DNA from: Eledone cirrhosa
Lineage: Eukaryota
Direction of reading: 5' to 3'
Assembly: GCA_964016885.1 (NCBI GenBank)
Contig: OZ024760.1
Location: 15,624,001 to 15,688,000 of the forward strand
DNA: 64,000 nt
The position numbers and the translations under genes were made by a program. How positions within the stretch are numbered: the stretch's first letter is position 1; every line of letters starts with the position of its first letter. Below are positions 12,319 to 63,359 of this stretch, one piece after another. The notes beneath the pieces were generated by a model. It was not told the DNA's origin. It saw only the letters and a list, made by a program, of their open reading frames with translations, and searched no databases.

Positions 12319-12924
12319 CTATGTGTTTAATATATCTTGTCGCGTTTTTCTGTCAATAACTTTCTCGAAATACTTTGGTTTAATAAATCCATGTTCATCT
12401 CCTTCAGTGAGGATTACATTGTTCTCTGACTCGTAAAATGTCAGTCCTTCTTTTAATGCCAGATTTAGATTTAAATAAATCATTATGTCAGAAGATAATG
12501 GCATCCCGCTAATTACTCCAGCATCACCTGGTTCCCCTCTGGCGAAATGAATGTGCATTCTATTCCGTTTGCTTAGGCCTTCTCTTCTGATGGCATTCCA
12601 CGCACTGTAATAGGTACCATGAATTACATTAGGATAATTCGCTCCGTTTAATATCGGCTTCAAAGATAAATCTTTTATGTGGATTGAATGTCCTTGATTC
12701 GCTCGAATCATTAATTCGTTTCCCTGCTCTTTTAGCGAATATCTTTTCTTTGTGTCGTTTTTCACGATACGCCTGATGTCGTTTTGTGTTAAATTATTAA
12801 ATCCATGTATTTTGAGCAAATCGTTTACTTTAACGAATCCATTACTGTCTATTTGGATGCCTATGTGCTCTGCTTGGTGTCGTAATACAGTTACTAATTT
12901 TTTCGATATTCTAATATCACTCAT
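12319..12924 (-). CDS. TRPT1: tRNA 2'-phosphotransferase (Tpt1/KptA family) paralogue A, 201 aa, uninterrupted CDS
   Basis: Motifs SKxLxxVLRH, KKRY, IRANQGHS, IHGT, GLSKRNRMHIHF, VISGM and SENNVILT. Probable start is MSDIRISK at 12924; the track's upstream extension begins at a non-ATG codon. Confidence 0.92.
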   Translation of the reverse strand: MSDIRISKKLVTVLRHQAEHIGIQIDSNGFVKVNDLLKIHGFNNLTQNDIRRIVKNDTKKRYSLKEQGNELMIRANQGHSIHIKDLSLKPILNGANYPNVIHGTYYSAWNAIRREGLSKRNRMHIHFARGEPGDAGVISGMPLSSDIMIYLNLNLALKEGLTFYESENNVILTEGDEHGFIKPKYFEKVIDRKTRQDILNT

Positions 12925-13125: not shown

Positions 13126-13824
13126 GGGCACTACCATACTATTAGCTGTCAAAAGTGAAAATTTCGTCAACCTTCTCAATCGTAAACATCGTTTATTTCC
13201 GTATTTTCACGCGTTATTTTAATAAAGCATATCTATGTAAGTGGAGTTACTTAAATGAAAATTAGAAAACAAGTCATGGTTATCAAATAAATTGGATTTA
13301 ATCATTTATATTTTCATAGTGTTGAACAAATGAGCAACGATGGTTGCTGGACACTGTACGGCTTAATTCGAGATGTTTGTTTACAAACACACCGAGCATT
13401 ATAATAAATGTTCGGTGAATCCATACGTACATATATATGTGTGTGCATGTATGTATATATATATATACTACTGTACGTCTGTATACATATATTTATGTAC
13501 GTATACATACTTATATTTAAGTCATTTTCACCAACAGTGGAATTACTTCTGACAGCTAATACCATGAACTTAAATGAATTTTCACCAACAGTGGGAGTTA
13601 CTTCTGACGGTTAATACCATGAACTATATTTTCATAGTCATGGTTATCAATGTAGAAAACAATTTGGCCCTTTTAAGGGCCACCTATATTTTCATTTAAG
13701 TAACTCCACTTACATCGATATGCTTTATTAAAATAACGCGTGGTAATACGAAAATAAACGATGTTTACGATTGAGAAGTTTGACGAAACTTTCACTTCTG
13801 ACAGCTAATAGCATGTTAGTGCCC
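13126..13824. mobile_element. Foldback/MITE-like element with ~135-bp imperfect terminal inverted repeats
   Basis: 13126-13262 (GGGCACTACCATACTATTAGCTGTC...) is the approximate reverse complement of 13688-13824 (...GACAGCTAATAGCATGTTAGTGCCC). No clear TSD. Confidence 0.7.
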
Positions 13825-14915: not shown

Positions 14916-15290
14916 ATAAAAGTAAGGAAAGCCTACAAAAAATATATTTCACCTCAAAAAGTGGAATTCTAAAAATTTACCAAGAAACCTTAATTAAAAA
15001 AATTCATATAATAAACATAATTTTCAAAAGAGATTAATCAGGTAAAACACAAATGCAATAAAAAAAAAATAACCACCAGTCGACTTTGTTTCCTCATAAT
15101 TATTCTTAGTAATGCGTCATTTGCATATCTTACAGATACCTAGTCGGAGGTGTAGATTACGATCGATTAAAAATAAAGGTTCTCGAGGTTATCTTTGCCT
15201 TTCATCCTTACGGGGTCGATAAAATAAAGTACCAATAATGTAATAGTTTAATTACTGGCCTTGTGCCAAAAGTAGAAACAGCTATTTTCA

Positions 15291-16124
15291 CTAATCCGAG
15301 TCGTCCGAATAGTAAGCTGTTGCACGTGGAATCTTACGACCCCACTTGGCTGCGAAAATAAAACTGCCATCACTTTTCTCTTTCATAATGTATCTGCCTT
15401 TCTTGTCGTTCATCGCGATACGTTGGAGGTCGTCAAAATTGACGTGTTGTAATTCCTTACAGTTAAGCAAGTCTTTTACCTTAACAAACCCTTCGTTGTC
15501 CATAGGTATATTCATTTTCTCTGCTCTACGTCGTAATATCGCCGCTAACAGTTTCGATAAATTAATATCTTTTTTTACACCGGCCGTTTCTGTTTCAAAT
15601 GAATGACCCCACTCTGCCCCTATCATTAACGCACCATGCACAGTTTTCAAACTGAATCTCTTCTTTTTGTCACATTCCACGACATGTTTTATATCGCGAC
15701 AAGAGTAGTTACAAAATTCTCCCCTGCTAAGTAAATCGTCAATTTTCACGAAATGATCCGGGTCCATTTTTAATTCATATCCCTCCGCTCTATGTCGCAA
15801 CACATAAGCTAGTAGTTTAGAGAGATGAACAAGTTTTTTCTCATTGATATGTAAATCACTTATTTTCAAAATATGTTCATCGATTGTATGTCCCCGGTTC
15901 GCCCGAATCATTAGATCACCGTACTTAACTTTCAAACTGTATCTGTTCTTCGGGTCGATTTCCACGATTTTGGTGATATCGTCGTGGGTGACACCTTTAA
16001 ACTCCCTCTGACTAAGCACATCTTTCACTTTCACAAAGTTTTCTGGATCCATTTCTATATTCCTCTCTTTGGCTTTATGTCGTAAGATCTTAACCAACAG
16101 CCTGGATATGTTCTCACTGTCCAT
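15291..16124 (-). CDS. TRPT1-like paralogue B: three tandem Tpt1 N-terminal (RNA) lobes, no NAD lobe, 277 aa
   Basis: Three ~90-aa repeats, each S(R/K)LLxx(I/V)LR(H/R)...MDxxxFVK..DxL...D.KxR(Y/F)...I.AxxG(H/R). No HGT or HIH motifs. Uninterrupted ORF with start context AAAAAAATGG. Confidence 0.85.
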   Translation of the reverse strand: MDSENISRLLVKILRHKAKERNIEMDPENFVKVKDVLSQREFKGVTHDDITKIVEIDPKNRYSLKVKYGDLMIRANRGHTIDEHILKISDLHINEKKLVHLSKLLAYVLRHRAEGYELKMDPDHFVKIDDLLSRGEFCNYSCRDIKHVVECDKKKRFSLKTVHGALMIGAEWGHSFETETAGVKKDINLSKLLAAILRRRAEKMNIPMDNEGFVKVKDLLNCKELQHVNFDDLQRIAMNDKKGRYIMKEKSDGSFIFAAKWGRKIPRATAYYSDDSD

Positions 16125-16765
16125 TTTTTTTGTAATAGGTAGTTGAACAAGGGCAGGTGAAGTTGAAGACGAGAAACTTGTTAGAGGAGGATAAAAAATA
16201 AATCAAATGGTTTGTTACCGCGCAGTCGATATATATATATCTTCTATGTTCAGAACAGAATTATTTATTTATAAAGTGAACTGTTCGCTATCGGATTATA
16301 TATATTTATATAAACTGAAACTAAATTTTCCGGAAATAGAGCTAACACATCTTTAGAAAACGAAATACACACATATACATGAATGCATCCGCACCCAACC
16401 ATGAGTTAAGGGTGCCAACTTCACCGATGTTGCTCAATGAATGACTGGGACAGACCAATCCGGTTGAACCAGACTGAACCAGTATCAGAGTTAAAAATAC
16501 ATTATGAAGAGAGAAGAAACATTTAGATATAATTAGTAATAAAATGTATCATACCTAAACTGCTCCTAGATTCCTCGACTACGTAGTTTCGTGGCATAAA
16601 CAAAAACAATACATCATAAAGATATAGAGTCCTTGCGAGGTCTGCCGACTTATCAAGAGGATACCTCATTTTACTAGTCTCAAGAACGCGTCTCCACAAC
16701 GTGAGAAAGAATCCCAAAAGGCGGAGGGGGAGATAGTCACGCGATATAACGGTCGAGAAACAGAG

Positions 16766-62900: not shown

Positions 62901-63359
62901 TATACCTAGTTTGGTATGTTGTTAGTACAGTTAATCCATTCAACTCATGCTAGCATTATTGATGATGATATTTGATTTCTCTTTTATTTTATTTTTTCAG
63001 ACTCGTATGGTGAACCTATCACAAATTGATGTTATTCTCATCTCTAACTACACCTGTATGTTAGCCCTCCCTTACATCACTGAGTATTCAGGGTTCAAGG
63101 GTGTCGTCTATGCTACTGATCCCACTGTACAGATAGGAAGGTACTTATTCCTTTCCCTAATATTTTTTACAGACATATTTTATTTCAAAATGCTTTTTTT
63201 TTTTAGGAACGAAAAGGGTTGTTGATACCAGAAGGACATCTAATTGTAAAACATTGCATCAAAAATGATCCCATGATATATGTGAAATTTGTCACGTGAC
63301 CTGTAAGGCCAACCCCAGCTTTATATATATACATCAGCCGTCGGGGTCCTGACTCTTTT

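What the first reader, a model, noticed from the sequence alone, without database searches (positions are those of the whole stretch)
15291..16124. Unusual architecture: three tandem Tpt1 RNA lobes with no NAD lobe
Seen: an intact 277-aa ORF of three diverged repeats. The RNA-lobe phosphate-binding residues are kept (repeat 1 LRH/KNR, repeat 2 LRH/KKR, repeat 3 LRR/KGR), the QGHS linker motif drifts (NRGHT, EWGHS, KWGRK), and the ADP-ribosyltransferase-fold lobe (HGT, RxHIH, SGMR) is absent. Known: Tpt1 needs both lobes, and the fourth catalytic Arg is in the NAD lobe. Inference: a catalytically dead, multivalent reader or protector of 2'-phosphorylated or terminally phosphorylated RNA, or a regulator of the neighbouring enzymes. 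Strong divergence between repeats with no stops or frameshifts argues for selection. I do not recall this architecture being described, but could not search.
Basis: partly seen in the sequence, partly recalled or inferred. Interest (0 to 1): 0.9.

Follow-up and report, generated by a model that had tools for sequence, protein, structure and literature searches.

The report
Triple Tpt1 RNA-lobe protein, no enzyme
An intact gene in a likely octopus-group genome repeats three times only the RNA-gripping half of the RNA-repair enzyme Tpt1 and lacks the NAD-binding half, so it likely makes a non-catalytic protein that holds phosphate-bearing RNA ends, a layout that also turns up in other animals.

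Summary
Confirmed. Window 15291-16124 (-) is an intact 277-aa ORF of three Tpt1/TRPT1 RNA lobes with no NAD lobe. It is one of five intronless TRPT1 copies, likely retrocopies, beside a spliced six-exon parent elsewhere in the genome. The lobes diverged under purifying selection (dN/dS 0.18-0.51). They keep 16 of 18 phosphate-pocket residues but 4 of 12 polar residues of the NQGHS motif. An unlabelled run showing an A-to-I-like signature covers the ORF unspliced through its stop, so it is likely transcribed. The layout is not unique: 8 of 150 listed relatives are multi-lobe proteins without an NAD lobe, among them a colinear Argonauta protein, a chiton protein and a tunicate BTB-BACK fusion. 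Ten paper searches found no description. Best reading (0.5): a catalytically dead, multivalent binder of phosphorylated nucleic-acid ends. Binding and ligand are untested; orthology to Argonauta is unresolved; a second allele has 5 of 5 amino-acid-changing differences. The scan's index held no look-alike of this sequence.

The parts
15291..16124 (-). Gene B: single-exon ORF, 277 aa, three Tpt1 RNA lobes, short acidic tail, no NAD lobe
15879..16118 (-). RNA lobe 1 (aa 3-82): pocket S7 R8 R15 H16 K59 R61; NQGHS motif reads NRGHT
15591..15833 (-). RNA lobe 2 (aa 98-178): pocket S102 K103 R110 H111 K154 R156, all six kept; motif EWGHS
   Evidence: matches mouse TRPT1 at Z 15.8
15327..15569 (-). 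RNA lobe 3 (aa 186-266): pocket S190 K191 R198 R199 (His replaced by Arg) K242 R244; motif KWGRK
15251..16361 (.). Stretch covered by one unspliced contig of run X3 (inferred RNA library), across the start and stop codons of B
   Evidence: record 23
13126..13824 (-). Inverted repeat (arms 13126-13262 and 13688-13824, 137 nt, 93%) between B and A; ten listed T>C differences in X3 at 13147-13252 are minus-strand A's paired in the predicted hairpin (likely A-to-I editing)
12319..12924 (-). Gene A: intronless two-lobed TRPT1 paralogue; catalytic tetrad kept, donor-loop SGxR Arg replaced by Pro (SGMP), as in Octopus proteins P0158 and P0159
26777..27589 (-). Gene C: intronless two-lobed TRPT1 paralogue with all motifs (domain 26777-27379); true start uncertain; head-to-head with the RNase Z-like gene starting near 28498 (+)

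Best explanation
Gene B encodes three Tpt1 RNA lobes on flexible linkers with no NAD lobe, and it likely works as a non-catalytic, multivalent binder of phosphorylated nucleic-acid ends. Shown: the architecture, the fold, the loss of every NAD-binding and ADP-ribosylating element, purifying selection between the lobes, and retention of the phosphate/base-flipping pocket. Inferred: it arose when the 5' half of an intronless TRPT1 retrocopy was triplicated in a tandem cluster. Each lone lobe would bind weakly, because two phosphate-contacting arginines come from the missing lobe, and three lobes would restore avidity. The likely ligand is a 5'-phosphate or 2'/3'-phosphate RNA end, which B would shield from, or hold for, the intact TRPT1 enzymes, nucleases or ligases.
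For: Architecture and fold. Pocket residues S, K, R, H, K, R are the RNA-lobe contacts to the junction base, 2'-PO4, 3'-PO4 and 5'-AMP phosphate in solved Tpt1 complexes (PMC6333775, PMC12170183, PMC10622864, PMC10415124). In NAD-free complexes the distal tetrad Arg points away from the site. B keeps 16 of 18 pocket positions, both changes to Arg, against 101 of 225 other positions (binomial p 1.4e-4), 15 of 45 non-pocket K/R and 4 of 12 polar NQGHS residues (Fisher p 0.004). dN/dS between lobes is 0.28, 0.18 and 0.51. A neutrally drifting copy of this ORF stayed open in 26 of 2000 simulations at 0.05 changes per site and 0 of 2000 at 0.1. Likely transcription. The named NAD-lobe-less proteins keep the pocket too: Argonauta 10 of 12 in its two recognisable lobes, chiton 11 of 12, tunicate 11 of 12.
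Against: No binding was tested, and I found no paper showing an isolated RNA lobe binds anything. dS is near saturation and the method ignores transition bias, which lowers dN/dS; the lobe 2-lobe 3 pN/pS interval reaches 0.98. A second allele has 5 of 5 amino-acid-changing differences (P 0.32 if neutral, 0.045 at dN/dS 0.3), though none lies in the pocket. Lobe 3 lost the His; lobes are less basic than enzyme lobes (+4, +1, +6 against +6 to +10). No Octopus orthologue of B was found. Argonauta lobe 1 is degenerate, and orthology is not shown. The ten-lobe protein P0151 lost the pocket (19 of 48) but kept the core (81 of 112), so such arrays can persist without it.
Confidence: 0.5

Rival explanations
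1. B is a general winged-helix RNA-binding or scaffolding repeat protein, used like tandem LOTUS or La motifs, and does not read phosphates specifically.
For: After Tpt1, the next fold matches are La and LARP La motifs (Z 8-9.3) and LOTUS domains (Z 6.5-7.3). Pocket retention is not above core retention (p 0.19), and P0151 and P0009 keep the fold but lose the pocket (19/48, 8/18).
Against: B keeps pocket basics far better than other basics (16/18 against 15/45 identical) and has lower net charge than enzyme lobes, which fits pocket binding rather than surface binding.
Confidence: 0.2
2. B was once selected but is now a relaxed or decaying retro-duplicate, transcribed along with the cluster and of little current function.
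For: 5 of 5 allelic differences change amino acids. The family turns over: copy E on C14 has a frameshift, Argonauta lobe 1 is degenerate, and no Octopus orthologue was found.
Against: The ORF would rarely survive 0.05 neutral changes per site, the pocket is kept in all three lobes, and five polymorphisms carry little power.
Confidence: 0.15
3. B is a dedicated partner of the neighbouring enzymes: it feeds substrate to, or blocks, paralogue A (which lacks the NAD-gate Arg) or C, or pairs with an NAD lobe in trans.
For: Tandem position on the same strand as A and C; X3 contigs tile from B to A with breaks at repeats; loss of the equivalent Arg weakens a bacterial Tpt1 (PMC6333775 section 14).
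Against: No stand-alone NAD lobe among the 9 candidates scored in the genome: the 4 matches all belong to two-lobed copies. The NQGHS motif at the lobe junction has drifted. Clustering is explained by tandem duplication. Octopus species have the A type with no B found.
Confidence: 0.12
4. The ORF is an exon of a longer protein that splices onto the NAD lobe of gene A, like the extra-lobe TRPT1 proteins of Owenia, Tegillarca and Mytilus.
For: Extra lobes in front of a complete Tpt1 exist (P0007, P0010, P0040), and A lies 2.4 kb downstream on the same strand.
Against: The three best-scoring donors (two in B, one in its 3' flank) are phase 1, and the only acceptor passing my filter needs phase 2 and lies past A's HGT motif (a crude consensus scan). 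The X3 contig runs unspliced through the stop (contigs drop rare forms). The Argonauta protein also ends after its last lobe.
Confidence: 0.03

Closest known systems
Tpt1/KptA/TRPT1 RNA 2'-phosphotransferase (Pfam PF01885; PDB 7YW2, 7YW3, 6E3A, 8TG5)
   Same: Winged-helix RNA lobe with the S-K, R-H and K-x-R pocket residues; 41-50% identity of each lobe to neighbouring TRPT1 lobes.
   Different: Three RNA lobes and no NAD lobe, HGT, RxHIH Arg or SGxR; cannot transfer ADP-ribose. A 2026 paper states that all Tpt1 enzymes studied have a single bilobed fold (PMC12810181, passages).
Argonauta hians GAB1608604.1 (P0002), labelled 'tRNA 2'-phosphotransferase 1-like'
   Same: 277 aa, three colinear lobe positions, no NAD lobe, acidic tail, 35% identity over the alignment.
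   Different: Its first lobe is degenerate, and its second leans to the A-type paralogue in the tree; common origin is neither shown nor rejected (p-AU 0.247; lobe 2 with lobe 2 p-AU 0.059). It is an automated annotation, not a described family.
Tandem winged-helix RNA-binding modules: La motif (La, LARP1/6/7), LOTUS (MARF1, TDRD5), Z-alpha/Z-beta (ADAR1, ZBP1)
   Same: Related fold (Z 6.5-9.3); non-catalytic binding modules, some used in tandem (tandem use recalled).
   Different: 6-21% identity; the Tpt1 R-H and R pocket residues are not conserved in La (PMC6333775). A working analogy only.
Extra-lobe TRPT1 proteins (Owenia CAH1790725.1, Tegillarca KAJ8308379.1, Mytilus CAC5387880.1)
   Same: Additional RNA lobes in one chain.
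   Different: They keep an NAD lobe (partial in the Tegillarca and Mytilus models), and the extra lobes checked in Owenia and Tegillarca have partly or wholly lost the pocket.

Membership tests
Tpt1/KptA enzyme (PF01885) | N-terminal winged-helix RNA lobe | tested here: met
   Three copies
Tpt1/KptA enzyme (PF01885) | C-terminal ART-fold NAD lobe with HGT motif | tested here: not met
   No NAD-lobe HMM hit, no HGT
Tpt1/KptA enzyme (PF01885) | [quoted passage not shown] | tested here: not met
   First three kept in lobes 1 and 2, His replaced in lobe 3, fourth Arg absent (tetrad)
Tpt1/KptA enzyme (PF01885) | NAD-dependent 2'-phosphate transfer or 5'-phosphate ADP-ribosylation | not testable with these tools
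   Predicted absent: H130A-T132A and R150A abolish NAD binding in human TRPT1 (PMC10415124 section 22)
Octopod TRPT1 paralogue clade | Lobes group with octopod TRPT1 against other animals | tested here: met
   15-row clade, support 100/99 against 8 outgroup rows; 90/83, not starred, in the 53-row tree
Orthologue of Argonauta GAB1608604.1 | Lobe-by-lobe common ancestry | tested here: inconclusive
   Lobe 3 pair 61/0; five-lobe clade p-AU 0.247; lobe 2 pair p-AU 0.059
Orthologue of Argonauta GAB1608604.1 | Shared synteny beside RNase Z and the SGMP paralogue | not testable with these tools
   No Argonauta DNA could be fetched
Retrogene-derived copy | Intronless where a spliced parent has introns | tested here: met
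   The parent on C2 has six coding exons with an intron inside the RNA lobe; B, A, C, D and E run through without one
La motif / LOTUS family | Family sequence profile | tested here: not met
   No La or LOTUS Pfam match at E 0.1; fold likeness only

The most novel reading that the evidence does not exclude
The Tpt1 RNA lobe is a free-standing reader of phosphorylated RNA ends that animals have cut loose from its enzyme several times independently (octopods, a chiton, a tunicate where two lobes replace the Kelch repeats of a BTB-BACK adaptor, and an unnamed ten-lobe array). B is its purest form, a trivalent sensor of the marks that animal TRPT1 acts on.
Probability: 0.3. Interest if true: 0.78.

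Novelty: new variant of a known kind. Interest (0 to 1): 0.55.

Why it matters
What TRPT1 does in animals is open: Trpt1-null mice showed no tRNA or XBP1 splicing defect (review PMC4090602, passages), and its natural substrate is debated (5'-phosphate ends, NADP, 2'-phosphate RNA). A naturally evolved, enzyme-free triple RNA lobe would show that the lobe can bind alone. It would also be a ready affinity probe: what it pulls down from octopod tissue would point to the natural ligand. The expansion to six TRPT1 loci in this genome, with one conserved altered paralogue, suggests an undescribed RNA-end biology in octopods.

Tried and rejected
Sequencing-run search: no RNA holder listed. Word-based homologue search with B: 0 of 840 candidates scored. 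The B+Argonauta profile found 5 of 8000 scored candidates, none a new multi-lobe protein; both searches covered 152-485 aa only and do not show absence. Exact look-up of B, A, C and D: 0 of 4 in the collection. ESM Atlas: single-lobe PF01885 clusters only, scores 0.88-0.89. Single-sequence AlphaFold2: pLDDT 45, not used. DNA for the ten-lobe protein P0001: 72 pattern matches, 0 confirmed, so its completeness is unchecked. A polymorphism control on the HemN-like gene failed: X1, X2 and X4 laid nothing there. The genome search for a fungal-type RNA ligase (PF09511) rang neither here nor in the 14 controls, so it is uninformative. The Foldseek PDB search did not run. No complex prediction was sent, because an RNA lobe with an NAD lobe would pass by likeness to solved Tpt1. 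My early note that gene A lacks the fourth catalytic Arg was wrong and was corrected. Assembly artefact rejected. Four papers could not be opened, among them two domain-architecture surveys whose ids I recalled; they may mention such arrays. No supplements were read.

Full report
Observation. The ORF is as described: 15291-16124 on the minus strand, 277 aa. PF01885 hits it three times, each over the first half of the profile only. An HMM built for the NAD lobe finds nothing in it, and the NAD-lobe motifs are absent. The lobes are 38-44% identical to each other, and single contigs of three public runs span the ORF without differences, so it is not an assembly artefact. AlphaFold2 with a 31-sequence alignment, deep mainly over lobe 1, gives three confident domains on low-confidence linkers (mean pLDDT 86.9, pTM 0.46). 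Among 48,161 chains the best matches are three Tpt1 structures (Z 15.8, 13.7, 10.0), then La motifs.

Setting. The genome is 3.0 Gb. The closest named relatives of neighbour C are Octopus and Argonauta TRPT1 proteins at 60-70% identity, so I infer an octopod. The genome holds at least six TRPT1 loci (counts are lower bounds). One is a spliced gene on C2 with six coding exons and an intron inside the RNA lobe. Five are intronless: A, B and C in this window, D on C3, and E on C14, which has a frameshift. I infer that B descends from a retrocopy whose 5' half was triplicated. All three lobes fall in the octopod TRPT1 clade (100/99 in a 23-row tree; 90/83 in a 53-row tree from which 16 near-duplicate or very degenerate rows were dropped). 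Their order of branching is unresolved.

Selection. Nei-Gojobori dN/dS between lobes is 0.28, 0.18 and 0.51, with pN/pS bootstrap upper bounds of 0.76, 0.73 and 0.98. The enzyme paralogues give 0.33-0.51. dS is close to saturation and the method ignores transition bias, so these are rough. In simulation the ORF stayed open in 26 of 2000 runs at 0.05 neutral changes per site and in 0 of 2000 at 0.1, far below the divergence between lobes. Against this, the second allele seen in one contig of X4 differs at five sites, all amino-acid-changing: K52I, V66I, D129G, A181T, K184E. This has P 0.32 under neutrality and 0.045 at dN/dS 0.3. None is in the pocket. Constraint may be relaxed now, or outside the pocket.

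What is kept. Solved complexes place the flipped base between a Lys and an Arg with a Ser contact, and the 2'-, 3'- or 5'-phosphate on Arg, His, Lys, Arg and Tyr of the RNA lobe plus two NAD-lobe arginines (PMC6333775: passages and section 14; PMC12170183: passages; PMC10622864: abstract, opening of the introduction and section 14; PMC10415124: passages and sections 22, 25, 26, 27). B keeps 16 of 18 of the six RNA-lobe positions, and both changes are to Arg. This compares with 101 of 225 other positions, 15 of 45 other K/R and 4 of 12 polar NQGHS residues. Against all other conserved columns (29 of 42) the excess is not significant (p 0.19). The residues needed for NAD binding are all in the missing lobe, so catalysis is excluded on established grounds.

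Expression. No run is on record as RNA. My inference rests on run X3. Its assembly is 88 Mb against about 1,400 Mb for X1, X2 and X4. It shows 30 T>C places of 61 against 4 of 29 in X1 (Fisher p 0.001; T>C against A>G p 0.0005). The ten listed sites at 13147-13252 (29 rows of that table were not shown) are all minus-strand A's paired in a 137-nt inverted-repeat hairpin. Only 1 of 10 has a 5' G, against 10 of 47 A's in that arm; that ADAR avoids a 5' G is recalled. This is the pattern of A-to-I editing of a minus-strand transcript. X3 is a different sample from the DNA-like runs, so alleles are not formally excluded. One X3 contig covers 15251-16361 unspliced, through B's start and stop, and further contigs tile towards A with breaks at repeats. 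B is therefore likely transcribed. Its own strand, level and ends are not shown, the editing lies 2 kb downstream of B, and X3 was found because it holds B.

Relatives. Of 916 representatives hit, the 150 listed were classified: 94 are ordinary two-lobed, 34 are single lobes (mostly short, probably fragments), 8 have two or more RNA lobes and no NAD lobe, and 14 are other mixtures. Three of the 8 are named: Argonauta hians GAB1608604.1 (277 aa, colinear with B at 35%, first lobe degenerate), Liolophura sinensis XP_064602609.1 (two lobes in 820 aa) and Clavelina lepadiformis XP_076816677.1 (BTB-BACK plus two lobes). The other five come from unnamed records and may be cut short. The chiton and tunicate lobes lie outside the octopod clade, and the tunicate pair groups with Ciona TRPT1 (100/95), which points to separate origins. 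Whether B and the Argonauta protein are orthologues is open. No Octopus orthologue was found, by searches of limited reach.

Mechanism. The most likely reading (0.5) is a trivalent, non-catalytic binder of phosphorylated nucleic-acid ends, with avidity making up for the lost NAD-lobe contacts. Rivals are a general winged-helix binder (0.2), a decaying duplicate (0.15), a partner of paralogues A or C (0.12) and an exon of a longer enzyme (0.03). The ligand is inferred. Animals mostly lack 2'-phosphate splice junctions, which favours terminal phosphates; a lancelet is a reported exception, and my genome search for such a ligase was uninformative.

Novelty. Ten full-text searches listed no paper on NAD-lobe-less or tandem RNA-lobe proteins. 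The KptA/Tpt1 passages of two surveys (PMC9503650, PMC8120803) do not mention them, and PMC12810181 (passages) says all enzymes studied are single bilobed units. The library lacks most subscription papers and four papers could not be opened, so this is not proof. The scan's index holds no look-alike, only the mirror case, a bacterial stand-alone NAD lobe. Losing a catalytic half to become a binder is a known route, so I rate this a new variant of a known kind, interest 0.55.

Noticed in passing
window 12319-12924 (-): Gene A has SGMP in place of SGMR, losing the Arg that gates NAD and contacts the 2'-phosphate; the same change is in Octopus sinensis XP_029649910.1, O. bimaculoides XP_052832118.1 and unnamed P0157. 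A conserved octopod paralogue with likely weakened or altered activity (the equivalent R137A is crippled in Runella Tpt1).
   Followed up: partly
window about 12255-12445 and 26710-26900: The 3' ends of genes A and C are nearly identical (59, 60 and 58 of 60 bases in three successive blocks, against 36-47 of 60 in the 5' part): likely recent gene conversion.
   Followed up: partly
window 13126-13824: Inverted repeat with clustered T>C differences in run X3, likely A-to-I hyper-editing of a minus-strand transcript just upstream of gene A; B and A may share one transcription unit.
   Followed up: partly
G000:C2:101478973-101491354 (+); L014 (C14); L002 (C3): Spliced six-exon TRPT1 parent on C2; frameshifted intronless copy E on C14; intact intronless copy D on C3 with a run of short tandem peptide repeats before the RNA lobe.
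   Followed up: partly
proteins P0021, P0015, P0001/P0151, P0010: Other uses of extra RNA lobes: BTB-BACK plus two lobes in Clavelina, NUDIX plus extra lobe plus Tpt1, an array of about ten lobes, and four degenerate lobes before a full Tpt1 in Owenia.
   Followed up: partly
window 28498-55010 (+): Multi-exon RNase Z (ELAC2)-like gene head-to-head with gene C; name from recalled motifs plus metallo-beta-lactamase Pfam hits at 47174-47413. Two tRNA-processing families side by side may be chance.
   Followed up: no
window 57201-58601 (-), 62935-63222 (+), 3235-3945 (-): Single-exon radical SAM/HemN-like gene; an exon resembling Integrator subunit 9 and a first exon resembling ATG14 (both names recalled; weak or no Pfam hit).
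   Followed up: no
window 30792-32246 (+), 10558-11172 (-), 52650-53400: Reverse-transcriptase ORF of a retrotransposon, a GIY-YIG fragment and an 18-bp tandem array inside the RNase Z-like gene.
   Followed up: no
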